A DNA stretch of 64,000 nucleotides, from the NCBI GenBank assembly GCA_973895155.1, contig OZ316892.1:2917223-2981222 (forward strand), written 5' to 3'. Source of the stretch: Marsupella aquatica (lineage: Eukaryota > Plantae > Marchantiophyta). The first letter of the stretch is position 1; each line of letters opens with the position of its first letter. Shown piece after piece: positions 1-55,925 of this stretch. Position numbers and translations under genes: made by a program. The notes beneath the pieces were generated by a model, which had not been told where the DNA came from, made no database searches, and saw nothing but the letters and a program-made list of their open reading frames with translations.

Positions 1-930
1 ATCTTAGAAATGGATGGACACCTATAGAGGCGCTGCAATCTTGGAATGAGAGGGAAATGCCGTAGGACCTTAGCAGGTTGAGTTGACTTCCCCACGTTCT
101 TATATCTGTGCTTTCCACAGATAGGGCAGGATAGGCAATCAGCATATTCTTTTCTGAAAAGTACATGGCCATTTGGGCATGCATGGATGGACACATAATT
201 CAAACCAAGTTTGCTCATCACCTTCTTTGCCTCATACATGTTCTTAGGAGCAATGTTTCCAGCGGGTAGTACTGTCCTCTGTAGGAACATCAACAACTCT
301 GTTACACATATGTTGGGCAGACGGTGACATCCACATATATTGAGGAACATCACTATGAACCCTAGTTTGGAGCAATTTGCACCACCATACAATGGGGACG
401 TAGCTTCCTCCAAGTAGGCCCCAGCTCCCAAGAATTGACCATCATCTCCAACTCCTTCTCCAATGTCAAACTCTTCTTGGTCCGACGGGCCTGCACCATG
501 CATGTTTGCTTCTTTGTCCCCCTATGCCTCTGCATCTTCATAAAGTGCATCCAGGTCTTCAAAAATGTCCGAAACCATCCTAGGAACATCTGCCCCGTCC
601 TCATTAGAAGTCTCGGGACCTCCCTGTGGAACATACTCATCTTCGGCATTGTTACCTGCATGACCAGTGACGTTATGAAAGAATGCAGAGCGTCTTGCTG
701 TATTCACATTTTCAAAATCTGCCCTCCATTCATCATCCGATGAATCCTCTTCCTCTGGCACATTCCACACCCTGCGGACTGGATGTCTTCCATGCCTTTG
801 AAGATGAGAATGCACTTGGTTCAGGGTCATCGAGTGGTATCCTCGACATTGCATGCAGGGGCATCTCATCCGGGCATTTCTGCCCGGCTTGCTCTAAGCA
901 CCTCTCTATTCCACAACTTGGAGTCATGAC
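1..930 (-). pseudogene. CACTA Tnp2/TnpD transposase (Transposase_21 family), N-terminal part, disrupted
   Basis: One minus frame reads MRCPCMQCR..HLQRHG (transposase-associated domain), then PLYGGANCSKLGFIVMFLN, PKNMYEAKKVMSKLGLNYVSIHACPNGHVLFRKEY and PAKVLRHFPLIPRLQRLY, all typical CACTA transposase motifs. There is an in-frame TAG at 522-524 and a frameshift near 870. Confidence 0.93.
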
Positions 931-1411
931 GTGCAATCCTCAGTGGGTGATGCAAAGGGAGTCGCAGTTCATTGGTATGTGTCTGATTCCTTTGCCCCAA
1001 CTGTCCATCCTCATTTGCCTGATCCATACCTTCAATTGTCGTAGGCACACCTTGGCTATGTACCCTTTGCACTAGACAGGCTTATACAATTGCATATTCT
1101 AAGTACATGGAGGGACACATGCAAGTTTCATGAAGGAAATATCACAGACACGGTGTACACTCACTATCAAGTCCGCTCTGTGCTGGCGCTTGACCTGCTC
1201 ACGTATCATCTGCTCACTGCAGGCAGCAACATCATAACAAACTTGCTATAATCAGTGAGGTGCTTGGTCGTTGACCAATCAATGGTACAACGTACATCAT
1301 ACACTGCCATACATCTCCAAATGCAAAACCCAGACATTTGGAGGATGAAAAGGAGTAATGTCTTATAGACCAAAAATAACACACAAAACTTTATTTCAAA
1401 AATGTAATCGT

Positions 1412-2365
1412 CTAGCATACAGACAGTTGAGACCTTACTTCTTCATAATCATTAGGGCTAACAGAATCATACGCACTATCAGAAAACTCTTCATCCGTGG
1501 TCTGGAACTCAGAAGTAACATATTCTGGGTCGTCATAGGGAATGAATGGCTTTGCTGGCCATACTTCATTTAAATCAAATTTATGCTCATCCAATCGCAT
1601 ATTTTCCGAAAGTGACTGCCTGACCCATTCAGGGCAGACCACACGCAGCCCATGTGCGATGAGCCATCATACCACAGACTTTCCATACTCTCGGCATGCC
1701 TTAGAATATGAATGAGCAATGACATGGGTGGTCTCATTAGTGAGCTTCTCAATCACTGTACCACCTCTTCTACTGATCTCCCTCTTGAAACGACAGACCC
1801 TATATGGCTTGATAGACTTGTCAAGTATAACAGCCCTCACACCTCTGAACATTGTACAGTCTGGGATGGGTTCTGTCTCATATGGGATAATGTTGTTGTA
1901 TACTTTTGTGATCTGGTCAATAGACGGAACCCTACTCCCACCTCTCCCTGCAATTCTACGAGCCTTGTGCCAATCTCGACTATCTTTCATCATTTGGACG
2001 TTGTTGTACTTGCTCTCAAACAAATTGTAATCATCAGGATCTTGGACACTCCCTTTTCTAAGGGAATCAGACATCCATTATGCTGAAAGTACTTTGACAT
2101 GCCTCAATAAGACTTTGTCATAAAAAACCGACCAAGATGCCATTTTCAAACAATGTTCCCATGTTTCTGCAATAATATGGGTGACTTGAATGTCCTGTAG
2201 TTGACATTGTGTCTTTGTACCATGATGCTCAATGAGTTTTCTCCTAAGGATATTCAATCTTGCACTCTGAATACCTGGGACAAAAAAGACTTTGACCCCT
2301 TGGAAGATGGGAGCACACTGGGAAGGTGGAAGGGGGACAGGTTCACGCTTCCGTTTGGAAGGCAT
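1412..2365 (-). pseudogene. Intronless tandem-BRCT protein, BRCTs resemble the N-terminal BRCT of plant DNA polymerase lambda
   Basis: ORF-track pieces 2078-2389, 1667-2074 and 1412-1642 are one reading frame with stops at 2078-2080 and 1667-1669. BRCT1 is IFQGVKVFF..RLNILRRKLIEHHG..VTHIIA..WMSDSL. BRCT2 is MFRGVRAVI..RRGGTVIEKLTNETTHVIA..VVCPEWVRQSL. ATG at 2365 (MPSKRKR, NLS-like) follows a CAG acceptor. The C-terminal tail is acidic. Confidence 0.8.
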
Positions 2366-3248
2366 GATGCCTCCTGTAATAAAAGCCAATAGAGAAATAC
2401 CAGTGCCCGCGTTGCCTGTCCCTCAATGCTTCAGCCCAATGCTCTCTGATGACACAAAGTGCACTCTAGCTCCCTGATTGTGGCCCACATGACAGGATCA
2501 AAAGTCAATACATGCAGTAAATCCCAGCACGGAGTTATAGGACAAACCATATACTCTTCAGTCAAATTATTTTCACCATGTGTTCATGTAATTACATTGA
2601 TATGAAAGTAGAATGACAGTCTGCTTCAGTATACATGTGGCCCTTTATATTGTCGTGTCTGCATATAGTCTGAATTCACATTCGAATACCTGTATCTTAC
2701 GTGACAGTGGTGGGGACTGAGAATGATATCATTAAACTGCCCAATTTCCAGTCACATCTGTAATTGTACAAATGTATGGGTCAGGCACACGACTTAAGAT
2801 GACCTTTGTTAAGAGCCGAAACAAATACATAATGGTAGCTATATATGTATTTTCATACTCCTGGGCATGCATGTTGTTTTACTCCAGGCAACAGTCTGCT
2901 TGGAATCTTTAGTCTTTCACAGTTATGGTCTCTTACCATACACACTGAAAGTGGAAAAAACACATACATCCTTGTGCAGGCCCTAACTTTTAAATTGCAA
3001 TTAACTTAATCAGTCTTCAAAATATAAGTAAACTTAGTTTTTGAGGTGTCATCGTGTACGAAAGTATAAGGACAGAACCATGTATGGCTGAACTGAAAAA
3101 GCAAAATCCAAATTTACTATGCAGTCACAAAGTCGATCGATAGCTCACTGTAGCGGGGTGTCTCTGAGCTATGGTTGACAGTGCAGTGAGGTGCCCACTT
3201 CATTAAAAAGTCCAAAATGTGAGATGTGCAATGTTGGATTCATTTAGC

Positions 3249-3974
3249 TCAGCCTGTTGGTGCTGATCCACTTGTTTTGTTGCTGGCGCTGGAGGTGTCA
3301 TCCAGCAATAGCCAAGTCAAGTGGTCTCTCGCAGGGGTCTGCAAATGAGGGTCAATCGTATGGAGGTGGCAATACAAAAACCACCTATCAACCCCGTGTG
3401 TAGAGTGGGAATAAATTTGGCGGTCACATGCATACCCTTCTGCCTGAAGGGCTAGTAAACACTCATGGTGCCAGGCTGTGGGACATCTGGGACAATGGAC
3501 CATGTCTATCCAGTAGTCATCAGCATGCTCCCCACAAGCAGGACAAATATGTAGTGGGCAAAGAGAGTTATCATGGGGCAGGCATGTCAAACCAAAAAAA
3601 TGAACACAAAACCTGTCAGGACATTTCCACAACTCTAGTTGATCCCCCCCAACAGTGCCGTTTGTGCCACATTGAGCACACTTGTTGATATTAGTGGCAC
3701 AATCAAAGCAGGTCCAAGCACCCCGATGGTCCCCCCGGAGCCCAACCCCAGGGCATGTATTCTGTGGTGCATAAGTGGACCAGGAATTAACATGGAATTG
3801 TCTCAGGCAGGGGCCATGATCACACATGACCAGGTCACCTCCATTGTCACAAATGGCACAAACATGAGCAGCTTTATGATGAATTTGTGCATTGGACCAA
3901 TGATGATGTCTACTCATGGAATGGTGCCTCACCTGTGATCCGCCTCTGCGTGCTGGCCGTTTTGGACGAGCCAT
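3249..3974 (-). CDS. Stand-alone EDM2-type triple PHD-finger protein (about 241 aa), intronless, inside the CACTA
   Basis: VCAICDNGGDLVMCD..CLRQFH, CPLHICPAC, CPRCPTAWHHECL and FLYCHLHTIDPHLQTPARDHL are colinear with the PHD region of ENHANCED DOWNY MILDEW 2 as I recall it (VCAICDNGG..CLRSFH..CPLHKC..CRRCPKSYHRKCL..LIYCQEHEID..TPVRDH). Likely start is the ATG at 3974 (MARPKRPARR). The frame is open. Confidence 0.85.
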   Translation of the reverse strand: MARPKRPARRGGSQVRHHSMSRHHHWSNAQIHHKAAHVCAICDNGGDLVMCDHGPCLRQFHVNSWSTYAPQNTCPGVGLRGDHRGAWTCFDCATNINKCAQCGTNGTVGGDQLELWKCPDRFCVHFFGLTCLPHDNSLCPLHICPACGEHADDYWIDMVHCPRCPTAWHHECLLALQAEGYACDRQIYSHSTHGVDRWFLYCHLHTIDPHLQTPARDHLTWLLLDDTSSASNKTSGSAPTG

Positions 3975-4380
3975 GACTTCTACCCCGATAGAAAACAACA
4001 CAATATGGCCAGAGTCAGTGACGTAGTGAAGCATGCAAGGAATGAGAAACAAAAACTATGAATTAATACCAAAGATTTGAGAAACTGTAATTTCAAGCTG
4101 TAAATTCAAGACGGGTTGTGTGCATGGAGGAAATTTTAAGTTTAGGACTCTGAGATTGGACACAGGCAATTACTGAACGATTTTTGCCATTAAAGGTGGG
4201 CAATTGTTGGGCTAGCATTTTCACACATTAATTTTTATAAATTTTGGGGGCCACGAAAATAGGGGAACCAGCAGAAGAATTCAAAAGTCCACAGCAGGAT
4301 ATTGCTCAGCACAGCAAGAAGGCCAGTAGAATACAATCGACGCCCCATACATAAAATCCAATCAAATAACCCAAATCTAG

Positions 4381-5310
4381 TCTACACTTCCATAGTGAAA
4401 TCTTGGCTCGACCCTGGCCCCGACCTGAGATTGCTATAGTGATGGGCATGCATAAGAGAGGGAGGGATTTCTGTACATACTTGAGGATGGGCAGCACAAA
4501 CGCTCGACCCTGAGACCACCAGTGAAGACAAAGCAATGACAATGTAGAGGGCTCTGAGTGATTACAGACCTCAGGAGTTGACAAAACCCTGGAATGATTT
4601 CTTTGTGCCTAGCTTGGCAAAAGAGAAAGCTCTCGAACGGGTGGAAAAATGATCTGCAAGTGCCACAGAGAGAGTGTGGCTCATCAGTTCTGTGGCTCAT
4701 CAGTTGTCCGTGGAGGAGTACATTATAGAGTATCACATTTGACTAATGTCATGTACATTGAATACATACAGTGGCAAAGTAGTCAATGGAAGAGTGACCT
4801 GCTCCCTTTGCATTCTTCCTATTGCCGAAACATGAATGTAGAGGTAGAATTGCATGCAGGGAAATTTGAAGTTTAGGGCTATGACATCCATGCTTTGTGC
4901 AACCTCTAATCCGAAAGCCTCCAAAGACACAAGTGAAGCATATAGGCGCGCGTAATAACTTCTAATTTAGTCATTGACAGTACAAGAGTATACTCTAAAG
5001 TCTACGATTCTGAAAGTACAAGCATTGCAGGCGCGTAGGTCTGAAAAGTTGTTCCAAGACACAAAAAGCACTAAGCGACTAAGGATAGGACCGTTGAGTT
5101 GAAATCGCAGCTCAGCAAAGGCAAAGAAAAACCCCCCGCACCCCCTCTTAGTTCTGCACAACACTTCTGCACACTAGAATACTAGTGTATAAAGATCCCA
5201 TCTACATTTCCATAGTGAAATCCAAGTTCGACGTCGACCCCGACCTGAGATTGCTATAGTGATGGGCGTGCATAAGAGAGGGAGAGATGATGACACGTAT
5301 TTGAGGATTG
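4381..5310. repeat. About 110-bp direct duplication (4381-4490 and 5201-5310), each copy containing a minus-strand splice donor
   Basis: Both copies share ttccatagtgaaatc...ccccgacctgagattgctatagtgatgggc.tgcataagagagggag at an offset of 820 bp. The minus strand reads CAG|GTCGGG in both. Confidence 0.85.
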
Positions 5311-6652
5311 CGAGAGAGAGAAATCTGCAATAGAGAGCAGACACGATGGAAGAGTGAGACACGATGGAGGAGCGAGAACGAGAGAGAGGGCGAGAGAGAG
5401 TGAGGTGAGAATTCAGCAAGAGAGGTCTCGAATAGGGACAACCTTCTATCTATGAACCATAGTTTTTGTTGTCATTAATTTCCAGAGTTAAGATGAACAA
5501 ACATAGTACAAATAGAGCACAATGAAGCACCACGGTGCGTCGCATGGGACCTCTCTCCTCTGCCTGAACACCAGCCGCACCCAACATTGCACCAGAGATC
5601 AGCGCTCTTCAAAACAAGTTGACGACCTAAACCCCGCACTTCCAATGTTGCAGCGCATTTTTGTTCTAGCTCGTTCTCCTCTTCACTGAAGAACAACCCA
5701 ACAAGCAAATGGTGGAAGATGGACCCCCACACCTTCAACTTTGTGTTTGACCCGCCAAGTCTTCCCGCAATGCCCCTACAATGCCTTCGTGAAGCAATGC
5801 CTTTGGGAAGCAATGCCTTTGGGGAGCACTTGCAAACGCACTTAGCACCTGATTGAATGTGGTCACGTTGCGCTTCAAGTGTGGCCCTAAACCCTTCCTC
5901 CTCCCTTCAATCACAAAGAGCGGGAAGAACGCCCGATAGGGTGCAAACTAAGAATCCCGTGTAGGGATGATTTTTCCCTCCTCGATCAATCGATCGTAGA
6001 CTGCCCTTGCCCAGTTGCCTTGTTTGCTCCTCCTCCTCCTTGATCAATTCAATATCGACTGCCCAAGTCTTGATAGCTCGTTGCCTCATTCGCATGATAG
6101 CTCGTTGCCTCATTCGCACCCTAAACCGTCCCCTCCCTAAACCCTCTTCGCGGACAAAGAAACATTTTCTCCCGCGCATAAGGGTGGAGAGTACTAAGGT
6201 ACTCAGCCAGTGACATGTAGGGGGCTCATGTAAGGGGCTCATGTAAGGGGGTACCTCTACTAATTGAAGCTTGTAATTGGTGAGGAGCACTCACTCACAC
6301 AAGTATTTAGCACTAAGACGTTGAGCTTGGATAGTGGACCTGCAATTTTCCTTACAATGGCATGTTGTAATAATTGAATGTCAAATTAAGTGGTATCCCC
6401 CATCCAACTTCAAAGGTGCATGGACAACATAGACAACCTTGTCCTAGACAATTAACCTTGAACCTTGAACATGCAATGAGTGATTGAAAAGAGTAGGTAA
6501 AGTCCCTCTGGCTAAGGAGTTGCCACAAATGAGTGGATAGTTTGTAGAAGTGATACTTAAGACATATGTAGTGATAACACCCTAAACTTCCATAACCTTG
6601 TCACATTAGTCAATAGTGGTATGGTAAAAAATAGGGTGTATTTCTACTAGTG

Positions 6653-7128
6653 TACTTGGCATTGGTTTGGATGGGGCGGTTACTGTGACTGCGGTGACCT
6701 CGTTGCGGGCAGGTGTCGGTGAGGGAGGCACAGGGCAACATGGTGCCGATAGAGCTAGCACTGGAGTGAGGGAAGGACGCCCTTGCGAGTGAACGGAGGG
6801 CAATTCAGTGATGCCACCGTTTGGTGCAGATGCTGTTGTGAGCAGTGCGGGCTCAGTAAACCCTAAAGGCAGCACTGCCACGTCTGCCTCCAACATAGGA
6901 TCGCCATGCAGACTTGGTTCCACGTCTACTACAATGGGCAGACGATGGGCATTGTCCCACAGAGCGAGTTTCTTGTTAGCGGCCTGAAATGAAAACCCAA
7001 TGAGTGAGTGACATGGTGTACATGTATGTCCAACTAAACTAAATTAAATTAATCAGTTCAAAGGCAGATTAAGTGAACCAAATCAGGTTTCGTCAATTTG
7101 TAAGTACCTGGCTCTTGGTTCGCGCCAT
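6653..7128 (-). pseudogene. Spliced gene starting MARTKSQ-AANKK, Pro/Thr/Ala-rich, truncated by the CACTA insertion
   Basis: Exon 7128-7108 is ATGGCGCGAACCAAGAGCCAG followed by a GT donor. The intron ends in ttttcatttcag at 6984. The exon from 6983 is in frame with ORF 6606-6923 and runs into the CACTA TIR at 6652. Confidence 0.6.
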
Positions 7129-7607
7129 ATTGTCTTCACACCTGCAATATATATATGCATACTAACCATCAATGAACAGGGAATCACATATGAATAATTT
7201 AATACTCACTAATCAATTACTAATCAGAAAAGGGGGAATCATTCATTCCATGACTGACTTCACTCGTAGCGTACGCAACAACATCGTTTCATATCCATTC
7301 ACTGAAACAATCATTGCAATACAAATTACACATGGCGCCTGAATGAACGACACCGTGAGGATCGACAATGCCAATCATTGGGACTTGAAATTTAAGGAAT
7401 AACGAATGCATGACAAGTGTAGTCAAGTCAGCATTATCGACACTGAACTTCATTAGATATTTCAGTAAAATGATGTTAGCGAGTAAAAGATTCTGTAGAG
7501 TAAACATGACACGGTAAGAATCCAGAGTAAGCACAAAACAAGACTTTGAATACAAAAACTTCCCATACTTCGTCCTATAGTCATAGTCAATCCAGCGTTT
7601 TCCTATA

Positions 7608-7994
7608 TTGGATGAAGGTGCAACACAGAGTGATAACACTTGGACCCCTACAGAGAAAGCAGTTGCATATCAAAAACAATATCCACAATTGGTGCTTGAG
7701 CTAGTTCGTTCCGATCGAGCAGAGTATAGTCAAGCAACTGACATATATGCTTTGGGCAATGTCTTTGAGACACTACTCACAGAAAATTGGGATGGAATGA
7801 CCCCAATGACACGATTTCTGAATAGGGGTTGGAATGCTAGACAGCATGGCCCTAAATTGGAGATTATGATACGTGACATGATGGCCACTGATGTGAAGAA
7901 AAGAATGGATTGTATTCATTGGAGTTTGAGAATGATGAGGACATTCCAAGATTGTAGATTAGTTCAGCACAATAGTCCTTATCTAAGAGATTAG
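7608..7994 (+). pseudogene. Protein kinase C-lobe fragment
   Basis: YPQLVLEL..EYSQATDIYALGNVF..MIRDMMATDVKKRM resembles kinase subdomains VIII, IX and XI. No N-lobe, HRD or DFG is visible upstream. Confidence 0.55.
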
Positions 7995-10499: not shown

Positions 10500-12322
10500 A
10501 ATACGCTGAAAAAGATTCTCAACCCATAGACGAGGACATTGGAATGAGTAGCAATCATGCAGGGCAAAGCATAACCAAAATGGATGAGGACGCCAAAGAT
10601 GTTGAATGAAACATCACAATGCCAAATGTGAAACCTCCTCACAATGAATGGCCCATCAACGCCAAAGAATTGGAGATATTGATGCCACGTGTGGAGTTCC
10701 AAAAATGGATGAAAATCATTTTTGATGATGAAAATTTATGGGCCACAAGGTCTTGGATGCAAGAGAAGTACACAATGTCCAAGGTAACACATGTGGAAAT
10801 TGGCAAGCATTGACAGCAAAGATTTCGAGAGTATGCTCCAAAGAAGGCGCAAGGCAAAACAAGCTCGGTTTATCCTCCTTTTCTCCGACTCCTAATTGCT
10901 GAATTTATTCTCAAGTGGAAAGTGGATTACCGTTGGGAAACAAAAGAGGGCAAGATGACTCACTCTGTGCATTAGTCTGTCCTGGACATTGCAAGTTTGA
11001 AGAGCAACAAAAATACTACAAAAGATATGTCGAGTCAAGCAACCAACAAAGGGTCAAAAAGAAAGATACATGACACGCAAGACATTCATGTACATCATAA
11101 AGATAAACCAACTGCATTGGAATGACTCTTCACCAAATCCGAAAGTTTCAGCGCACCAAAACATGTGGACAAAACATCACACATTGCAGCATCTATAAGT
11201 AACAATTTGCCAGGAAAGTTCACTGGTGTTTTGGATCCAAAGAAAGAATCACTGAGCATGGAGATTGTGTGCAAGAGTTTGGGCACAGAGATTGGTCATT
11301 TGATTGAGAACAATCTCCGCACAAAGTTTTATCTTGACCTTTGTGAAGTTGACAGCATTGACTACTACAAGTCAAAGTTGCAAGATAATCTTTTGAACAT
11401 GAAAGCAATGGGAAAAATGCCCATTCAAAGTGCGACTACTTTAGAGGTGAAGAAATACAAGGTGCAACTGTACGACAAGATGGAGGAGATCGCAATGCTC
11501 AACAAACAACTTGCCCAAAAGGATGGTCAATCTAGTCAAATAAAACAAGTTCAAGAGGCAGATAGAGTCATTCAGGATTTGAAGAATCAGGTTGCATCAC
11601 AAGAGGTGATCATAAGCAATTTGCAAGAGGAGATCGAGCAAATGAACACTGTTGAGGTGGATCGTTAGTCAGACAAGGAAAAATCAAGATGTAGGAACTA
11701 CAATTATATGAACTTGCAAATGATTGATCCTACGGGAGAATCTCATCTTTTTCCGGATGTGGAGGAGGATCCAGAAGATGTAGAGAAATTTTTTGACAAG
11801 TGGAAGACCGATGAAAGTATGGCCCAATTTGTTCGAGAAAATGATGGAAGATGTACTTGGTGCTTGTATTTATGGGGTCCTGATTCTGTTTTCATTTTGG
11901 GAATATGCGGTCACTTATGGCATCATGCTTGCTTGTTTCGGTGGATAAAGAAGAGCCAAAAATGTTGGTGTCGGAAACCATTTCATGAACGAGAGTATGA
12001 GCAACGAGGTTTGTTGAAACAAATGCCACCAATGGAGACACAGCAAGACACTGAAGACATGACGCAAGAGAGTATTGCAATGGCACAGATCGATTCAAGG
12101 CTCATTGACAACTTCACAATTAATGAATACAACTTGTCAGATGGTGACTTTGACAATTTGCTATTCAGTGGTAGATTCCAACAGTGGAAGGAATATGCCA
12201 TGACCAATCGACCAACAATAGATGAGCAAAACATGCAGCGATCTATTCGTCACCATCGTCGTCGTCGGCAACTGGCAGAGGTGAAAGCAGAAGCGCAAGA
12301 CAATGAAAACCGAAATGAGTAG
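10500..12322 (+). pseudogene. Intronless coiled-coil + RING-H2 finger protein (about 600 codons) with several in-frame stops
   Basis: ORFs 10619-10813, 11165-11668 and 11708-12322 share one frame and are separated only by single stop codons. There is a heptad-rich segment (KVQLYDKMEEIAMLNKQLAQKD..IQDLKNQVASQEVIISNLQEEIEQ) and a RING-H2-like motif, CTWC-x12-CGHLWHHACL-x8-CWC. Confidence 0.7.
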
Positions 12323-12812
12323 ATTGCACACACAATGTTTAGTATAGCATATTTTATTGCATAGGACTTGCACAATCCGGCATAGTATATCATAGTTTGT
12401 CGTATAGTACTAGCATGTAATACCTAAACAGATGTCAAGGTTGTGACGAAAAGTGCCTTGTGTTATTGTTTTCATTTTCTTGCAACTGTCGATCAAATTG
12501 AAATTGTCTTGTCATCCATTGGACCGGATCTGCGCTATGATATTCTTGAAATGCCCCAACACGGGAATGTATGCTTGATGTGTATGGATTTTTCATGTTC
12601 TGTCTTTCATACATATTTAGTGTTGGAGAAGCATGTTGTCCCCACTGTGCATCATCAGGTTGTGCAAACAAAGTTGGTGTTGTTCTCTCAGGACAGAGCT
12701 CCGATGCAGCACCTCGTCGTTGAAATAAGTATGAAGTACTTGCTTGGACATCATTTTGTAGATTCAATGTTGGGTATGTGAAGGATGGGTTTGATTCGGA
12801 AGGCACTACAAA

Positions 12813-14422
12813 CACTAGTACATTTTACCTCCTTTTTCCGATTCTCTCCACATCGGACGCCTTTGTAAAATAAAATTTGAAAAACCATATATCCGATACT
12901 ACTAGCATCGCAACATGCCATTTTAATAGTATCGGATATCGACAATCGGACTTCTATCGGAAAGTCCGATGGTGGGAGAATGGGAAAGTCCGATGGTGGG
13001 AGAATGGGAAAGTCCGATGCTAGGAGAATGGGAAAGTCCGATGGTGAGAGAATGGGAAAGTCCGATGCTAGGAGAATGGGAAAGTCCGATGGTGAGAGAA
13101 TGGGAAAGTCCGATGCTAGGAGAATGGGAAAGTCTGAAGCAATCAAAATGGGATATGCATTTCAGCGGACGCGACATGCTCAGGTCACCCATCTCTTCCT
13201 TTAATTGGGTTTCTACTTTCATTTGGAACTATGAGCTAGGTGCCCATCTCCCTTGACATGTGAACTCTTCAAATTTTCTCAACTAATTGGTCACCCATCC
13301 CAATTGCTATTCCTCCAACATGAGCTTAACTTTGTGGTTCTTATTCCTTACATTGTACATGCAAGCTTAGCACTTTTGTTGTTTGACTTAGAGTGTTTGG
13401 GGATTTATACACTTGTGAGTTTACTAAGACCCATAATTTGGACCCATTCTTGATCCATTTTTCTCTATCATGAGATTAGATCTTTGCATCAAGTGACCTA
13501 TTCTAGTTACCCTATTACATTCCCCTAGGAGAAACCAATAGAAATCTGGCAGGGGTCATTCATCGATAGTAAAGCCCTCCTTCATTAGATTTGATATGGG
13601 ATAATTATGGCTTATTAGTTATGGATGATATTTTGGTCCTTCCAAAGCCTTAGCGTCAATGGCTCCTGATTGTCTCATCTTTTATCAACTATGTTGTTGT
13701 TGGACTTGCAACAAAGACTACATGGGACAAGCAACCTCCTTCTAGATGATGTATTTTGGACTTGGCATGTTGAGCACATATTTCCGTAAGGGAGCAATAT
13801 GTTGGGTCTTGGAATGAGGCAAAAACAACACTCAAGTCTATTTGCCTCAAGTATGAAGTTATTCATGCATGCAAGAATGATTGCATCTTTTGGGAAGAGT
13901 ATGTCGGTGTAACCACATACCCCATCTAACACATCAAAACTTTTCATTCTAACACAATAAAAATTTTTCTTTTTGTCATAACCAGACTTTCCCATACTCC
14001 CAGCATCGGACTTTCCCATTCTTCTAGCATCGGACTTTCCCATTCTCCCACCATCGGACTTTCCCATTCTCCCAACATCGGACTTTGCCATGTTAGCACA
14101 ATCGGATATAATATCCGTTATTATTAACTACGGAAAGTTTCCGATCAATATTGTAACGCACATCATTTTCGTTACAAAAAACATCGGACATATCAATCAA
14201 AGTTTCTGTTGAGGGATCCGATGTGTTTTCTAACGGATATGATCCATTTTTTAACGCATCGGAAAGGTTCCGTTGTCAATTATATCGGAAATGAAGATAT
14301 CCAAAGCCGAGAGTATGGCATATTGCCATTTTTTGATAATCGCAATTTCCGATGCTAAAAGAATCGGACGCCGATTGTTCGCAAAAATTGAGCATCGGAA
14401 ATCAGCTTAATATGTACTAGTG
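12813..14422 (+). mobile_element. Non-autonomous CACTA deletion derivative, 1610 bp
   Basis: TIRs are CACTAGTACATTTT (12813) and AATATGTACTAGTG (ends 14422). The 3-bp TSD AAA is at 12810-12812 and 14423-14425. Subterminal TCCGAT/ATCGGA repeats are inverted between the two ends. An internal Tnp2 remnant (SWNEAKTTLKSICLKYEVIHACKNDCIFWEEY) lies at about 13807-13902 on +. Confidence 0.95.
12959..13137 (+). repeat. 24-bp tandem subterminal repeat (GGAAAGTCCGAT..GGAGAATG), about 7.5 copies
   Basis: Directly visible. About 4.5 inverted copies occur at 13982-14087. Confidence 0.95.
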
Positions 14423-17400
14423 AAAGTTTGCATCAAATGAGTAGTCATCATCATCCTGAATTTGAGACTCATCGATTGTAGGGAACATCATTAAATCCAT
14501 TTCATCTTCCCATTCTCCGGCATCACTTATTTCAGTATCTGGTGGAATACGAGTCAACATGTCACTATCATTGTGTAATGATAATCCTTGCAAAGCCTCA
14601 TCTACGTCATCAATTATATCAAAATCCTCCACGTCATCCTCTCCAAGAGCCGCACATGTAACACCATGTTGTTCAGGGTCACATCCTTCTATGGAAGTAG
14701 GCCTCGGGCCATCATTTGTTGTTGTTCTTTCATCATATCGTCTATACATAGATGTATGAGGGTTTCTCACCTTTGTGAGCTCGGGGGATCACTATATGAA
14801 GGGTCATACATCACGTGCGACGGTTTGGGTTATTTATGACCCCCTAAGTCACTTTCTAGAAAGTTGTACGGCACCAATCATGTGATGACACGTATGCATT
14901 TTGTAATTAAATAACCCTATATTTCCATAGAAGACTTAATAAGTCTTCCGCCAAAACCATTTAAATGGCCCTATACTTCATCGCACATGATATGCCACTT
15001 CCATGGAAGTGACCCCCCCGAGTTCGTGAGTCCTTTTTGCACCCTCGAATTTGTGAATACAAAAACCAAGTCTTTTGCCCGATCATTGGTCAACCTATTA
15101 CGACTTTTTGAATGGATAAAGCCGTACGAACTCCAATTTTGTTCGCATGAAGATGCACACATTTGTTGATGCGTGATTCTTCTGGCTATCAAACTTAGCT
15201 CCGCGTAATCAGCTCCATACAAATGCCACCACTCTCCTGGACTTAATTTCCTAATATTGGATTGTGCTCCTCTAATTGCAACCGATGAATTTGACAATTT
15301 TTTTTGAGCCTCAAATGCCTGCATTTGGATGTCAGAAATAAGTGTCGTCACATCTCGATCATGGTTGATTCCTGCCTTCACCTTGTTCTGCATATCTACG
15401 AACGTAATCATTGAAGCCTCTATACAGTTCTGCATCTCCTATCACATCTTCATCTTCATCGAAGAAAAATTGAGGATTCAGATATGCTGCTGCTAACATG
15501 AAATCAGTAGTAAGTGATTTTTGTCGATCCATATACACTTTCATTATCTTTGGTTTTAAGTAATATGTTACTAATGTACAACCCTCCATGCTCGCTTCCA
15601 GTTTAGCTATTCCTTTTTTCAAGCTCCAATATAGCCAAGGAGACTGTGGTGAAACTCCATCGAATTCTCACAACATTTTCACCAACGGCAGGAAAAAAGC
15701 AACTGTAGATTTTACTTGAGCCCAAAATGTATCTTGCTGTATCCACGATTTAAGTTCGTCTGCCTTTCCCCTTGTCACATGCCCCTATAGGTGACTTTGG
15801 TCGAACTGGCAAGCAATCACGATAGGATTGCCACTTATCATCAATGACCATTTGTTGTAAAGCTCCTCTTAGCTCCAATGCTCTCTGCGCCATTAAAAAA
15901 TTTGTTGCAAATCTCGTTGCATTTGGATTTAACAACTTCCTATAACCAGATTTCCTCACAAATATTGCAGACAACTTTTGTGATGATGTAACTGCTTTAA
16001 CTATCCATCTCAAGTGCTTAAAAATAATTTTGAATGGATTTTTTTCCGCTCATCTAGCACTACATTCTTGTGGCCACACATGTCTTCTAGCAACAAATTA
16101 AAAACGTGGGTAGCACACCAACTCCATGTCACATGCGGATATTTTTCATGACTATCTTTTCACCTGCTACACGATTTGCAGGCGCCCCATCGGTAACAAT
16201 TTGTATGATGTGATCGGCGCCAATGTCATGTATTTTAACCACATGTCACCAAGATACTTCCCATCTTTCTTGTCGGCTTGTGCAGCGTTCCAACTATCCA
16301 AAAAGAAATCTCCTTTTGAACTCAACAACATGACATTCATCAAAGGTTCTCTTCGGATATTTTCCCATCCATTGGATGAAAGAGAATATCCAAAAGGTTT
16401 TGCCTCTTTCATTGTTTTTGTCATGTCCTTTGTAAGATCAACTCTAGCCTCCTCCAATAATTTTATTCTCAAATTTTGCATACCCGGAAGAGAATATCCA
16501 TTTACAATCCATTTCAAGGTTTCTGTGACTGCTTCACGGAAGAAAGGATTCTCTGACACATTGAACGAAATACCACTTGAATAAAAAGCTTTAGCCCACA
16601 GCTTATCCAAATGAGCTCTATTTGGAATTTGATAAGCATCCATGATTGGGTTTGCAAAATTTGATGCTCTACTTCGATGACTCATATTTCCATCCTCATC
16701 GAGGTCAACAAAATTTGAGTCTCGAGTTGATGCTTGCCTGAGGGGTCTCACTATATGGATGTCTCCCCATCCCCTGCGACGTTTTTAGGCCTCAGACCCC
16801 CTAAAATGTAAGAAAAAAATTATTTTTCAACCCCTATAAAGTTGAAATATTCTTGGAATATTCCAAAATTTTGGTTAAAAAGACCCTAATGTTCTTATAA
16901 GTCTCAAAATTGAATTTAAAGGACCCTATTGTTCTTCTACAAAAATTCTTAAGTCTTCTCTTCAAACTAATAAATCGACCCTATACTTCGTCGCACGTGA
17001 TGTGCCATTTTTGTGGAAGTGAAACCCCCGAGATGCTTGCAAATTGGAAGATGGGTTATATGACCTACGACCTCTCATGGATAACAGAACATGACTTCCA
17101 TCACTTCGTTTGTACTTTATGGATGGGTCAACCTTTATGACATTCTACATTCTATGATGTCATCTAAGTCAACAACTCCATACAAGCCTGTGCAAGGTGG
17201 CGCATCTCCTTTGTGTATGTTTCCCATCAAATGTGCTTTGCTCGTGTTGCATGATGCGTTGTATATTTCTTGCAAAATTTGCATCTTCGATATATACGAT
17301 TAATATCATTACACGCTGATGGCGTATCACATTGTTCAAAATATTTCCACACTAGGGAAAATTTTGCACTACGATCTCGATTGTGATTTCCACCGTGCCT

Positions 17401-44400: not shown

Positions 44401-45281
44401 CAGGTTTGTCTGCCCCACATAAAGACGTAGCAAACTATCATATAGGTGACTGGTCCTAGATGCAACCTTTCAAATATGAAAACCCTAAAGTTAGAACCGG
44501 AAGACCCGAGTGCATCCTTGTCCCTTTTTCACAACTTAAGTAGAGATTCTAAAGCGTCAAATCACCTGATTTTATATCACCAGCACAAATCTAAAGTCCA
44601 GCTAAGGTCTAGCTGTTTCAACGGCTCCTTGGCCCTGACTCAGATATTTGAAGCCAGCTATACAGCCTCCTATTCGTAGTGAGAAACGTAAAGCTTGAAG
44701 TCCCATTTCGGTGTTATCAGACGAGGGCAGAATTGGCATCTATTGGAAGGCATTGCAAACTCTTGCAATTTCAAAATCAGTCCGACAGAAGGCACCTCTC
44801 CGTCGTAATTTTGCACTTCAGACCAGGATTAGTTCCACTTAAAGCCACTGCGTTCTAGATCTCGAAGCAGGCTACAGATGACGGGTGAACAAATGTCAAT
44901 ACAGAATATGGAAACCAGTGGGATTTCAACCTACTACACCCCCCGCGCATTGCTTCCGAGAGCCCTAGAGTGCGACGTGAAATTCGAAAGGGACCCAGTA
45001 CCACCTTCGATTGTCGTTGCCATCGGCATGCGGAATGTAAAATTTCCCACTCTATCCAGATCCCTAGGTGCCCACAAGTCTTTGATTGAGCTCCAGAATT
45101 GAGAGAGAGTGCGAGAAAGGCCAACCTTGGTGCTGACTCGATACGAAATGTAGGCCTGCACTCCGGTTCCCAGCTTCACAGGATCAGTCACGGATATCGC
45201 CAAATATGGTTGCTCCTGCCCAGCTGCCGGGCTTGGAGGCACCCCTCCGCCCCGCCCGCTTTGCTGCTGCCATCCATCCAT
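41404..45281 (-). CDS. SNX1: Sorting nexin 1 (PX + BAR domains), 10 exons, 414 aa
   Basis: Exons 45281-45126, 44409-44274, 43988-43855, 43474-43397, 43056-42897, 42719-42586, 42395-42327, 42081-42002, 41836-41776 and 41640-41404 are all GT-AG and total 1245 nt in frame. Motifs: [77 protein letters not shown]. Confidence 0.97.
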
Positions 45282-45318
45282 ACTCAACTCCAGCAACAAA
45301 ACTACTCAACGAATTGGG

Positions 45319-53165: not shown

Positions 53166-55925
53166 TTAGCTTTGCGTATTAATGGACGGTGGCGGAAGCA
53201 ATGGAGATAATGGACCGGACGTACCGAGTTCCGGCATCGATATGAAAGGAGGAGCAGAAATGTTGGGCTGGAGAATGGCTGAGAAGTAGCTGCAGTTCGG
53301 GTCAAGCAATTTCACCACACGGTCCATGGTCGGGCGGTCCTCGGGGGACACTTGCACGCAGAGAAACGCGGTATACATCATGCGCTTGAATTGCTGCGGA
53401 TTGATGTCCGTCAAGCTCTGGTCCACGAGATGGTGCGTCCTCCCATTCTGCTGCAGCGTCCGGGCCCAGAGCACGAGGCTCTGCTCCATCTCCGGCAACC
53501 TCTCGTCCATCGGGCGTCTACCGGAGATGAGCTCGAGGAGCACCACGCCGAAAGCGAACACATCGGTGCGCTCATTGAAGCCGCCATACATCAAGCACTC
53601 GGGTGCCAAATAGCCGAATGTCCCGGCGCAGCTGACCTGATCATCAGTGGTGTCGCCGTCCGAGAGCCATCTCGCGAGCCCGAAGTCTGAAATCTGAGCC
53701 TCGAAGTCCTCTCCAAGCAGAATGTTGGACGTCTTGATGTCACGGTGGACGATCGGCATCGGGCTGAATGCGTGCAGGTATGCCAGCCCGCGGGAGGCTC
53801 CGAAGGCGACCTTCTGGCGCTGCGCCCAGTTGAGCTTTCTGGTGTTGGCGCTGTGGAGATTTCGTTCGAGGCTGCCTCGTTGCAGCAGCTTGTAGGCGAT
53901 GAGACGGTGCGGACCCTCTGCGCAAAACCCGATTATGGTGACGACGTTGGGATGGTTCAGTGCGCAGATGAGCATCATCATCTCCATCATGAATTCCTTC
54001 TCGCCTGACATGTCGTCGACCAGCTTCTTCACGGCCACCACGGCACCGTCGCTCAGGCGCGCTCGGTACACGGCGCTGGCTCCGCCGGTGCCGACCACAT
54101 TGCCCTGTGCAAAAGACTCCGTTGCTGCGCGGAGCTCCTCGTACGTGAACCTTCGGACCTCCGGGAGCTCCAGCTTGATTTCCTTGGACAGAGATTGCAG
54201 GCCGTCTTGGGAGAGATTGTACTTGATTTCGGAACAATTGCGTGCGAATTTCGGTGGGGAGCAATTTGCATAGCACACCAGCGCGCCTTCCTCTTCCACC
54301 TCCTCGTCCTCTTCTTTTGCGAATTTCGGTGGAGAGCAATTCGGTAAACAGACCGGCGCACTTTCCTCGTCCCCCTCCTCTTCGTCTGCTTTCTCATCCT
54401 CTCCTCCGTCTTCTGAACCTTTCCTATCCTCCTCCGATTCCTGTAAATAATAATCGGCTAATACAAGGGCACCTTCATCGTCCCCCCATGGCTGGTCTTC
54501 GTCTTTCCTGCCCTCTGATTCCTTCGGGGAGCAACATACTAGTGCCAGCGAGTCTATTCCCTCCCAATTATCTTTCCTTTCGTCTAATTCAGGTGTAACA
54601 GAAGTACACACAAGGGCAAGTTGTTGCTCTTTATCTTCTAATTCAGGTGCAACAGAAGCACACACAAGGGCAAATTGTTGCTCTTTATCTTCTAAATCAG
54701 ATGCAACAGAAGCACACACAAGGGCTAATTGATGATCTTTATCTTCTACTCTCCTAGTGTCCTCCCCTACATGAGGTTTAGAGACTACCACAAGGGCACG
54801 GTCATCCTTTGTCCGCCGGCCCTCCGGACCTTTCCTGTCATTTGGGAGCTCTGGCACAGCCTCCAGGGAGTTCGATGAGGATCTAGACCTTATCCGAGGT
54901 GCCGGCCCACCGGCACCTTTCAGCCATTCCAATTGAGAGGAAAATGGAGTGGATGATGCTGTGAATGAAGCTGTATCTCTCTGCAGAGATGACAGCTGAG
55001 AAGGGGAGAATCCTTCGTCAATCTTTTCGATCCTGTCAATCATTCCCTGATTTGAAACCCTTGGAACGTTTGCAGCCCGTAAAACGCTGATTGGAGAGTC
55101 CTCACTTCCTCCGCTGGAGAGTCCAGAAGTACTACAGAATGAAATATCCCGACTCGAATTTGTCTTTCCCGAAGACGACGACAGCAATCGCCCTGTCGTT
55201 AGAGAATTATCTGAGGAATCCGACGATCCCGGCTTCGGGCCGAGACGACTCTTCTGCCGATGCGCAGAATAGTCTTTGACAACTAAATCCTCGACTAAAT
55301 GACGTGCATTGTTACTCTCCTCAAATTGATCGTAAAGTTCCTGCTTCTTGGTGCTTAGGATCAGCGTTTCGAGAGACCGGCGGAATTTGGCCTTGCCAGG
55401 CTTTTGCACATGAACCTTACCTTTCTTCACGATGATGACGTCGCAGTATGGCTCCAAGTTCCGCACGCAGAGCCGTCCCAAGTCCGTCATCTTCTTCGGT
55501 GAAATGCCTAGCACACCTGATTTGCGCTTCCCGAGGATCACTCGCGTGGCCTCCAAATTCTGCGCCTCCTGGACAATGGCATCGCGGATGCTCCTGCTCT
55601 CCACTACTTGAACGACGGTAGACAAATGCGGGACATCGTAGTGCATCCGACAATATGTGACCAACTCGCTCAAGGTGTTTAGCATGTCCTTCTTCTGCCT
55701 TTCCCACTTTCGACTCGACAGCGATGGACATGGTTCAACGACGTGGACGACTGTCACGTTGTCTCCAGACTGGGAGCCGTGAGTGAGTGCCCATGTGACC
55801 AGCTCCCCGCCCTCCTCCGTCAACTTCACGGCCACCAAAATCCGTTCGCTCGCTCTCCAATTCCTTCGGTTTGTCACCGACTGACATCGAGATAATTCAA
55901 TCGCTGTGGTCACTCCTGTCCTCAT
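53166..55925 (-). CDS. Receptor-like cytoplasmic kinase with N-terminal USP (adenine nucleotide alpha-hydrolase-like) domain, RLCK-VI-like; single coding exon
   Basis: USP domain: RILVAVKL..ELVTWAL..GDNVTVVHVV..IVQEAQNLEATRVILG..CDVIIVKKGKV. Kinase: RRFTYEEL, GTGGASAVY, VAVKKL, HRDIKTSNILL, DFGLARW, GTFGYLAPE, TDVFAFGVVLLELISGRRP. First ATG is at 55925; the ORF track starts at a GTG at 55970. Confidence 0.93.
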   Translation of the reverse strand: MRTGVTTAIELSRCQSVTNRRNWRASERILVAVKLTEEGGELVTWALTHGSQSGDNVTVVHVVEPCPSLSSRKWERQKKDMLNTLSELVTYCRMHYDVPHLSTVVQVVESRSIRDAIVQEAQNLEATRVILGKRKSGVLGISPKKMTDLGRLCVRNLEPYCDVIIVKKGKVHVQKPGKAKFRRSLETLILSTKKQELYDQFEESNNARHLVEDLVVKDYSAHRQKSRLGPKPGSSDSSDNSLTTGRLLSSSSGKTNSSRDISFCSTSGLSSGGSEDSPISVLRAANVPRVSNQGMIDRIEKIDEGFSPSQLSSLQRDTASFTASSTPFSSQLEWLKGAGGPAPRIRSRSSSNSLEAVPELPNDRKGPEGRRTKDDRALVVVSKPHVGEDTRRVEDKDHQLALVCASVASDLEDKEQQFALVCASVAPELEDKEQQLALVCTSVTPELDERKDNWEGIDSLALVCCSPKESEGRKDEDQPWGDDEGALVLADYYLQESEEDRKGSEDGGEDEKADEEEGDEESAPVCLPNCSPPKFAKEEDEEVEEEGALVCYANCSPPKFARNCSEIKYNLSQDGLQSLSKEIKLELPEVRRFTYEELRAATESFAQGNVVGTGGASAVYRARLSDGAVVAVKKLVDDMSGEKEFMMEMMMLICALNHPNVVTIIGFCAEGPHRLIAYKLLQRGSLERNLHSANTRKLNWAQRQKVAFGASRGLAYLHAFSPMPIVHRDIKTSNILLGEDFEAQISDFGLARWLSDGDTTDDQVSCAGTFGYLAPECLMYGGFNERTDVFAFGVVLLELISGRRPMDERLPEMEQSLVLWARTLQQNGRTHHLVDQSLTDINPQQFKRMMYTAFLCVQVSPEDRPTMDRVVKLLDPNCSYFSAILQPNISAPPFISMPELGTSGPLSPLLPPPSINTQS

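What the first reader, a model, noticed from the sequence alone, without database searches (positions are those of the whole stretch)
3249..3974. CACTA transposon encodes a stand-alone EDM2-type PHD histone reader: candidate anti-silencing or RNA-processing factor
Seen: an open, intronless ORF with a basic N-terminus and the triple-PHD cassette of EDM2, between a CACTA TIR (6652) and the Tnp2 gene and co-oriented with it. The flanking BRCT and Tnp2 frames carry nonsense codons; this one has none, although one PHD2 His ligand appears replaced (HFFGLTC versus YFYHPHC). Known: Arabidopsis EDM2 reads H3K9me2-marked chromatin through these PHDs and, with ASI1/AIPP1, promotes full-length transcripts across heterochromatic TE-containing introns. 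TE-encoded anti-silencers exist (VANC of VANDAL MULEs). Inference: the element captured only the reader module, lacking the EDM2 C-terminal methyltransferase-like region. It might use it to stay expressed in heterochromatin, act as a dominant negative or guide target choice. I do not know of this being described for CACTAs.
Basis: partly seen in the sequence, partly recalled or inferred. Interest (0 to 1): 0.9.

Follow-up and report, generated by a model that had tools for sequence, protein, structure and literature searches.

The report
Transposon carries captured EDM2-type histone reader
A multi-copy plant cut-and-paste transposon carries its own stripped-down, selectively conserved version of the zinc-finger module of the host chromatin protein EDM2, which it likely uses to stay transcribed in silenced chromatin, although the copy in this window is decaying.

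Summary
Real feature, with corrections. The 241-aa ORF lies inside a CACTA-type element (33-bp terminus at 6652), upstream of a tandem-BRCT ORF and the 5' part of a transposase. It carries the EDM2 PHD cassette plus EDM2's C-terminal motif. It belongs to an unnamed clade of stand-alone proteins (20 others found, support 99-100) with a signature His-to-Cys zinc ligand. In public assemblies PHD, BRCT and transposase parts share one depth, about 9-70 times that of the insertion-junction contigs. Between two subfamilies the ORF shows purifying selection (pN/pS 0.29-0.41, p 0.001-0.016). This copy is not specially preserved: its private changes are 10 nonsynonymous to 2 synonymous, including loss of that zinc ligand. 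The donor is unresolved; short host EDM2 paralogs lacking the C-terminal half already exist in liverworts and mosses. Expression and histone binding are untested, and CACTA linkage of the distant homologs could not be checked. Best reading: a transposon accessory chromatin reader that supports expression in heterochromatin (0.4). Rivals: transpososome targeting (0.3), non-histone role (0.2), passenger (0.1). CACTA anti-silencing by TnpA is known; I found no EDM2-type reader on a CACTA in print.

The parts
6620..6652 (-). CACTA-type terminus, about 33 bp (likely terminal inverted repeat; 5' end of the element)
   Evidence: Exact CACTAGTAGAAA. Depth falls beyond 6750 in 4 of 4 runs. Contigs X2:16 and X4:32 begin exactly at 6653 with 73 other letters before. 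High-depth contigs diverge at 6620 in X1, X2 and X4, as a second terminus would. Target-site duplication not testable.
5201..5308 (-). Leader unit 1: 108-nt duplicated block after a CT-rich tract; candidate splice donor at 5300
   Evidence: 82% identical to 4381-4488. The window lacks the donor G at 5300; the listed contigs of all 4 runs have it. The role is inferred.
4381..4488 (-). Leader unit 2: duplicated block with candidate donor GT at 4480-4479
   Evidence: role inferred from motif only.
3249..3974 (-). Stand-alone EDM2-type PHD cassette gene, 241 aa (PHD1 39-92, PHD2 99-131, PHD3 144-172, C-terminal motif 201-218); decaying copy
   Evidence: 24 of 26 EDM2 Cys/His columns are Cys/His here. 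Private changes include Gly128 (Cys elsewhere) and an extra codon at 3816-3818. Candidate acceptor AG at 3981-3980 with a CTGAC at 4018-4014.
1412..2365 (-). Tandem-BRCT gene, 317 codons, basic N-terminus, two nonsense codons (2078-2080, 1667-1669)
   Evidence: Pfam BRCT E 6.7e-13, two stretches, read with X at the stops. PDB Rad4/TopBP1 BRCT E 3e-5. Candidate acceptor CAG at 2376-2374. Same depth as the PHD gene.
1..1027 (-). 5' part of a CACTA-type transposase gene (runs off the window); stop at 522-524, frameshift near 882
   Evidence: PF13963 Transpos_assoc E 3.7e-6, 27.4 bits against cut-off 27.7. Both lesions are absent from the listed contigs of the 4 runs (tables 3 and 4). The start at 1027 is a candidate.

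Best explanation
The ORF is an accessory gene of a multi-copy CACTA-type transposon, derived from the EDM2 PHD cassette and kept under purifying selection, and its protein likely binds histone H3 tails on the element's own silenced chromatin to help the element be transcribed. Shown: homology, position inside the element, equal depth with the BRCT and transposase parts, selection between subfamilies, and CpG depletion of the element. Inferred: (1) the protein is made from a leader exon spliced to the acceptor before its ATG; (2) the cassette still reads H3 tails, perhaps with a specificity different from EDM2's; (3) it would promote read-through to the downstream BRCT and transposase genes, either by recruiting or mimicking the host ASI1-AIPP1-EDM2 function or by displacing repressive readers. 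The copy in this window is probably non-functional.
For: EDM2 cassette including the C-terminal Y-C..H...TPxR[DN]H motif, which the 2 NSD-like proteins aligned lack. Family monophyletic, support 99-100 in three trees. Main-contig depths for PHD, BRCT and transposase: 201, 226, 247 in X2 and 2315, 2294, 2443 in X4, against junction contigs of 23 and 32. Subfamily divergence 12.7 S: 12.3 N, pN/pS 0.29-0.41, p 0.001-0.016. In one X4 contig, noncoding DNA differs at 47 of 397 bases against 9 of 271 in the ORF, p 5e-5. CpG observed/expected is 0.26-0.43 in the element against 0.96 in a host kinase ORF, the footprint of methylation. EDM2 PHDs bind H3K9me2 and other marks, and the complex promotes distal polyadenylation in heterochromatic introns (PMC7472560 and PMC10241880, passages). 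EDM2 promotes COPIA4 transcripts (PMC3632883, passages).
Against: No binding or expression data. The family lacks EDM2's RFD-like N-terminal domain (PF12047) and its C-terminal half, so partner recruitment may be lost. The acidic stretch before PHD1 (net charge -5 to -10 in 9 long EDM2-like proteins) is replaced (-3 to +4 in 18 family proteins), one PHD2 ligand is Cys, and the PHD2-3 linker is shortened. A histone reader has no evident way to find its own element, unlike TnpA or VANC, which bind DNA motifs. EDM2 represses the DNA transposon Mu1 (PMC3632883). The splice model rests on motifs only. Genomic context of the 20 distant homologs is unknown.
Confidence: 0.4

Rival explanations
1. The PHD protein, with the tandem-BRCT protein, would act as a chromatin adaptor of the transpososome: it reads histone marks to steer insertion or excision, while the BRCT protein handles repair of the breaks.
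For: The element carries two reader-type modules next to the transposase at equal depth. Chromatin readers on Gypsy integrases are linked to targeted insertion (PMC12477816, passages). Loss of EDM2's other domains fits a pure tether.
Against: The PHD ORF has its own start and stop and is not fused to the transposase; no longer relative was found by word search (weak evidence). No insertion-site data. The one insertion seen lies in repeat-like DNA, which does not discriminate.
Confidence: 0.3
2. The cassette has been repurposed and no longer reads histones; it would bind DNA, RNA or a host protein (for example as a decoy or an element-end-binding cofactor).
For: Long stem branch (1.7-2.2 changes per column). 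Family-wide His-to-Cys change (11 of 11 family proteins with the motif, against 2 of 162 others), new pre-PHD1 motif, basic N-terminus.
Against: PHD1 acidic and Gly positions (D43, G45, G46, D52, G54, R58, F60) and nearly all zinc ligands are kept as in EDM2. The best solved relatives are the NSD2/NSD3 and AIRE PHD fingers.
Confidence: 0.2
3. It is a neutral passenger: a host gene fragment carried along in Pack-CACTA fashion, or conserved for a past host role.
For: The window copy decays neutrally (10 N: 2 S). Several homologs appear frameshifted or truncated. Host stand-alone or short EDM2-like genes exist in grasses and Marchantia.
Against: Purifying selection between two multi-copy subfamilies. 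Zinc ligands are kept across members only 31-54% identical to the window protein. A 54%-identical subfamily appears at high depth in the same runs.
Confidence: 0.1

Closest known systems
EDM2 (ENHANCED DOWNY MILDEW 2) and its land-plant paralogs; Arabidopsis EDM2_ARATH, Selaginella XP_002976689, Calypogeia CAM6087769, Riccia KAL3685775
   Same: Whole PHD cassette and C-terminal TPxR[DN]H motif; 29-36% identity; 24 of 26 Cys/His columns.
   Different: 220-257 aa stand-alone; no PF12047 domain, no C-terminal half; His-to-Cys in PHD2; short PHD2-3 linker; no acidic stretch before PHD1; transposon-borne and multi-copy.
TnpA of En/Spm (CACTA), e.g. Arabidopsis KAKUSEI/Spm1 and Spm3; VANC of VANDAL MULEs
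   Same: Transposon-encoded accessory regulators that counter silencing; TnpA and the transposase arise from one gene by alternative splicing in Spm3 (bioRxiv 10.64898/2026.08.24.746577, passages).
   Different: Those bind DNA motif clusters, and TnpA acts through DNA demethylases. That text has 0 occurrences of 'PHD' or 'BRCT'. This protein is a host-derived histone-reader module.
Chromatin-enzyme accessory genes of EnSpm/Plavaka and other DNA transposons (TET/JBP in fungi; SET, methylase and 2OG-oxygenase PAG genes in red algae)
   Same: Separate chromatin-related genes carried beside a CACTA-superfamily transposase (PMC12730594 and bioRxiv 10.1101/2025.02.11.637652, passages).
   Different: They are writers or erasers; this is a reader without a catalytic domain. 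'PHD' occurs 0 times in both texts.
NSD2/NSD3 PHD1-3 cassette (PDB 7cro, 29hg)
   Same: Same three-finger cassette; best solved relatives.
   Different: Weaker match; no SET or PWWP domain here; the C-terminal EDM2 motif is absent from the NSD-like proteins aligned.

Membership tests
EDM2 orthologues | NSD-type PHD cassette with conserved zinc ligands | tested here: met
   24 of 26 Cys/His columns; the missing PHD2 ligand is Cys in the family.
EDM2 orthologues | C-terminal extension Y-C..H...TPxR[DN]H after the last PHD | tested here: met
   TPARDH at 213-218, aligned with Arabidopsis EDM2.
EDM2 orthologues | N-terminal RFD-like domain (PF12047) | tested here: not met
   Only 35 residues precede PHD1; no PF12047 hit, present in Arabidopsis EDM2.
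EDM2 orthologues | C-terminal methyltransferase-like half | tested here: not met
   The protein ends 23 aa after the motif, against 360-868 aa in the long EDM2 proteins.
EDM2 orthologues | Nesting inside the EDM2 clade | tested here: inconclusive
   With NSD-like outgroups the family falls outside EDM2 at weak support (82/86) with a long-branch warning. Without them it joins the short liverwort paralogs at 64/66; no alternative rejected, p-AU 0.12-0.42.
EDM2 orthologues | Binding of H3K9me2-bearing tails; association with AIPP1/ASI1 | not testable with these tools
   Needs peptide arrays and pull-downs.
CACTA/EnSpm transposons | CACTA/G terminus that marks a repeat boundary | tested here: met
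   depth step and contigs breaking at 6652/6653.
CACTA/EnSpm transposons | Second inverted terminus and 3-bp target-site duplication | tested here: inconclusive
   The other end lies outside the window; loose ends at 6620 in 3 of 4 runs fit a second 33-bp terminus. No genome is held.
CACTA/EnSpm transposons | Tnp2/TnpD DDE transposase | tested here: inconclusive
   Only the 5' part is present; PF13963 27.4 bits against cut-off 27.7; catalytic domain outside the window.
CACTA/EnSpm transposons | Multiple copies | tested here: met
   Ratio of element contig depth to junction contig depth about 20, 9, 49 and 73 in X1-X4; a rough ratio, not a copy count.
TnpA/VANC-type anti-silencers | Sequence-specific DNA binding and trans-hypomethylation of cognate copies | not testable with these tools
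   No homology was reported by Pfam; the activity needs transgenics.

The most novel reading that the evidence does not exclude
The element has captured the host's heterochromatic read-through factor and built a feedback switch from it. The PHD gene sits inside what would be the long first intron of the BRCT and transposase messages; the PHD protein, made from the short message, binds the element's silenced chromatin and licenses read-through to the transposase. Together with a captured tandem BRCT this makes a CACTA lineage with two chromatin and repair readers, spread as an old, unannotated family.
Probability: 0.2. Interest if true: 0.85.

Novelty: new variant of a known kind. Interest (0 to 1): 0.62.

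Why it matters
The plant transposon counter-silencers I found in print bind DNA motifs (TnpA, VANC), and other accessory genes are chromatin enzymes. A transposon that keeps a pure histone-reader module taken from EDM2, the host factor that lets polymerase cross heterochromatic transposons, would be a third strategy. It also offers a natural, minimal EDM2 cassette of about 220 aa for working out how these atypical PHD fingers read marks, and a testable case of how a silenced CACTA element is expressed or targeted.

Tried and rejected
No whole genome is held, so copies could not be counted or given termini. No RNA holder listed among 6 runs; no evidence either way on expression. Search for longer fused relatives: none among 338 candidates (weak). 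Context for homologs: metagenome scan 1 gave 0 of 95 stretches and the viral scan 0 of 24. Metagenome scan 2 gave 11 loci at 23-41% identity, those I could read being EDM2-like or generic PHD proteins rather than family members, with no transposase or BRCT hit. Structure models were poor (pLDDT 42 and 55); Foldseek gave no match at E 0.001, only weak PHD/PZP rows; not used as evidence. The ESM Atlas hits were under 0.9: leads only. BRCT donor: no homolog among 419 candidates; a resemblance to plant DNA polymerase lambda BRCT is recalled and untested. H3-tail likeness of the N-terminus: no PDB hit at E 10, so not supported. No second copy of the element in the window. Earlier scan findings: nothing relevant in 4 look-ups. 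Rejected: 'this copy is selectively intact'; 'ligand loss is a family trait' (it is private to this copy); a named donor lineage. The host lineage was not determined beyond a plant-like gene and transposon content. No complex prediction was run.

Full report
Observation. The ORF is as described: ATG at 3974, stop at 3249-3251, minus strand, 241 aa, no internal stop. On the same strand it follows a CACTAGTAGAAA terminus at 6652 (the only exact match in the window) and about 2.7 kb of noncoding leader. It precedes a tandem-BRCT frame (2365-1412, two stops; Pfam BRCT E 6.7e-13 when read with X) and the 5' part of a transposase gene (PF13963, 27.4 bits against a cut-off of 27.7) that runs off the window. 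The catalytic transposase domain and the second terminus are outside the window, and no genome is held.

What the protein is. Pfam gives sub-threshold NSD-type PHD hits and the best solved relative is NSD2 (E 6e-6). A full HMMER scan of 1.84 billion representatives gave 201 hits at E 0.001, of which 150 were listed. Eight of the top 9 are short unnamed proteins; the first named hit is Selaginella EDM2 (E 1.5e-19). I looked up 30 of the hits by exact sequence; the named ones include EDM2 or EDM2-like proteins of liverworts, mosses and flowering plants and the Arabidopsis EDM2 cluster. The window protein aligns with Arabidopsis EDM2 over 212 aa at 29%, through the C-terminal Y-C..H...TPxR[DN]H motif that the two NSD-like proteins in my alignment lack. 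Of 26 columns that are Cys/His in at least 6 of 7 EDM2-like proteins, 24 are Cys/His here.

An unnamed family. By motif I assigned 17 of the 150 listed hits, 2 more and 1 to one family of stand-alone proteins (20 besides the window's; the complete ones are 220-257 aa, many others are fragments). For the 10 whose sources I checked, 7 come from Logan, 1 from ENA and 2 from JGI; none has an NCBI or UniRef record. The members used are monophyletic in three trees (10, 7 and 6 members; support 99-100; stem 1.7-2.2; one search is a quick tree). Family traits: Cys in place of the PHD2 His in 11 of 11 members with that motif, against 2 of 162 other proteins; a short PHD2-3 linker; and a QK(A/S)(A/P)H-type motif instead of EDM2's acidic stretch before PHD1. 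The donor is unresolved. With NSD-like outgroups the family falls outside EDM2 at weak support with a long-branch warning. Without them it joins short liverwort paralogs at 64/66, and no alternative is rejected (p-AU 0.12-0.42). The family profile scores the Calypogeia and Riccia short paralogs highest among named host proteins (136 and 125 bits, against 99 for Arabidopsis EDM2 and 70-93 for the algal and NSD-like rows). These paralogs and the moss ones end 6-50 aa after the cassette, so the C-terminal half may have been missing before capture.

Part of a multi-copy element. Six public runs from three coded organisms hold the stretch, none on record as RNA. Laid on 1-7500, four runs show depth falling beyond 6750. 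Contigs identical to the window across the junction have depths 137, 23, 110 and 32 in X1-X4; main element contigs are about 20, 9, 49 and 73 times deeper (the tool warns that depth is not copy number). PHD, BRCT and transposase contigs share one level (X2: 201, 226, 247; X4: 2315, 2294, 2443), and three X2 contigs tile 1724-3741 from BRCT into PHD with 30-base overlaps; no single contig spans the element. Two contigs begin exactly at 6653 with other letters before them, and contigs diverging at 6620 fit a second 33-bp terminus. In one search depth peaks at the PHD1 and PHD3 motifs in all four runs laid (X2, X4, X5, X6). The loose ends there, read by eye, give GPCMRHFHL and MWHFHCLK, which among stored proteins occur only in P0001, 54% identical to the window protein. 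So a diverged subfamily also seems repeated in these genomes; its link to CACTA ends is not shown.

Selection. One search listed 40 of 46 majority differences in the ORF. I classed 12 as private to the window copy (all four runs differ) and 25 as separating the X4/X5/X6 subfamily from X2 and the window. I left out 3 (3475, beside a compensated one-base indel pair, and 3870 and 3332, with mixed support); 3825 and 3923 are ambiguous but were kept. Private changes are 10 nonsynonymous to 2 synonymous (pN/pS 1.5-2.1, compatible with neutrality); they include Gly128, where other copies have the Cys ligand, and there is an extra His codon as well. Subfamily changes are 12.3 to 12.7 (pN/pS 0.29-0.41, binomial p 0.001-0.016 over transition ratios 1-6). 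A single X4 contig differs at 47 of 397 noncoding bases and 9 of 271 ORF bases (p 5e-5), whereas the X2 contig shows no such contrast (17 of 501 against 12 of 502, p 0.35). The transposase stop and frameshift are also absent from other copies; the BRCT stops were not among the 40 of 581 rows shown. The gene is therefore constrained in transposing lineages, and this copy is decaying like its neighbours; lacking a stop has probability 0.33-0.64.

How it likely works. The element is CpG-depleted (0.26-0.43 against 0.96 in a host kinase ORF), so it has likely lived in methylated chromatin. The PHD and BRCT start codons are each preceded by an acceptor-like sequence, and two duplicated leader blocks begin with donor-like sequences, one of which is intact only in other copies. 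If leaders splice to alternative acceptors, BRCT and transposase messages must read through the PHD gene inside silenced chromatin, the situation in which host EDM2 suppresses early polyadenylation (PMC7472560, PMC10241880). I therefore favour a reader that supports the element's own expression (0.4). The rivals are a transpososome adaptor for targeting (0.3), a non-histone role (0.2) and a passenger (0.1). That the gene is a functional, transposon-borne EDM2-type cassette I put at about 0.85. The weak points: no expression or binding data, altered residues before PHD1, loss of EDM2's other domains, no evident means of self-recognition, and EDM2's opposite effects on Mu1 and COPIA4 (PMC3632883).

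Literature. Nine full-text searches listed no paper whose title or abstract start describes a PHD or EDM2-like gene on a CACTA element; 'EDM2-like' with 'transposase' gave 0 papers. I saw matching passages only, not whole texts, of bioRxiv 10.64898/2026.08.24.746577 (TnpA anti-silencing in Spm), PMC13547354, PMC13317346, PMC12730594, PMC12477816, bioRxiv 10.1101/2025.02.11.637652, PMC7529245, PMC7472560, PMC3632883 and PMC10241880. The word 'PHD' occurs 0 times in the first six. PMC4120745 (PHD domains in LINE ORF1) was seen as a listing only. No supplements were read; Repbase and subscription journals were not searchable and could hold such families.

Verdict. Observation confirmed, interpretation partly supported. 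Not an EDM2 orthologue (two defining domains absent), but an EDM2-type reader module maintained as a CACTA accessory gene: a new variant of a known kind, interest 0.62.

Noticed in passing
window 2081-2365 (-): The first BRCT and its basic N-terminus resemble the N-terminal BRCT of plant DNA polymerase lambda (recalled, no call confirms it). If so, the element also captured an end-joining repair module.
   Followed up: partly
window 3945-3974 (-): The N-terminus MARPKRPARR resembles the start of histone H3 (recalled); R3 is nearly invariant in 12 aligned family members. It could be a tail mimic or simply a nuclear localisation signal; no PDB hit.
   Followed up: partly
proteins P0055, P0056, P0207, P0083, P0038; loci L002-L006: Separate short EDM2-like PHD proteins (259-401 aa), some with basic N-termini, exist in Eleusine, Triticum/Aegilops, Miscanthus and Marchantia. 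They keep the His ligand where the motif was read and are not in this family; whether any is transposon-borne was not checked.
   Followed up: partly
window 6596-7010: Contigs across the insertion junction are identical to the window in runs labelled organism A and organism B, while the dominant subfamily differs between them (about 3% against 6-8% from the window). This suggests separate recent bursts.
   Followed up: partly
window 4251-6250: In X3 and X4 depth drops several-fold over the noncoding leader and recovers near the terminus, so the dominant subfamily there has a different leader.
   Followed up: no
window 14971-16784 (-): Broken hAT transposase pieces (DUF659 E 1.6e-9, Dimer_Tnp_hAT E 2.4e-10).
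   Followed up: partly
window 11126-12322 (+): A coiled-coil-like ORF followed by a RING-like ORF (sub-threshold Pfam), next to repeat-rich frames at 12751-14127; possibly cargo of the neighbouring hAT element.
   Followed up: no
window 53166-55976 (-): Open 936-codon frame with a Usp domain and a protein kinase domain, not CpG-depleted; likely a host gene.
   Followed up: partly
window 44934-45305 (-): An exon that looks like the start of a sorting nexin 1 gene (recalled).
   Followed up: no
window 7587-7994 (+): A 135-codon frame with a kinase-like DIYALG motif just outside the terminus; no Pfam hit.
   Followed up: no
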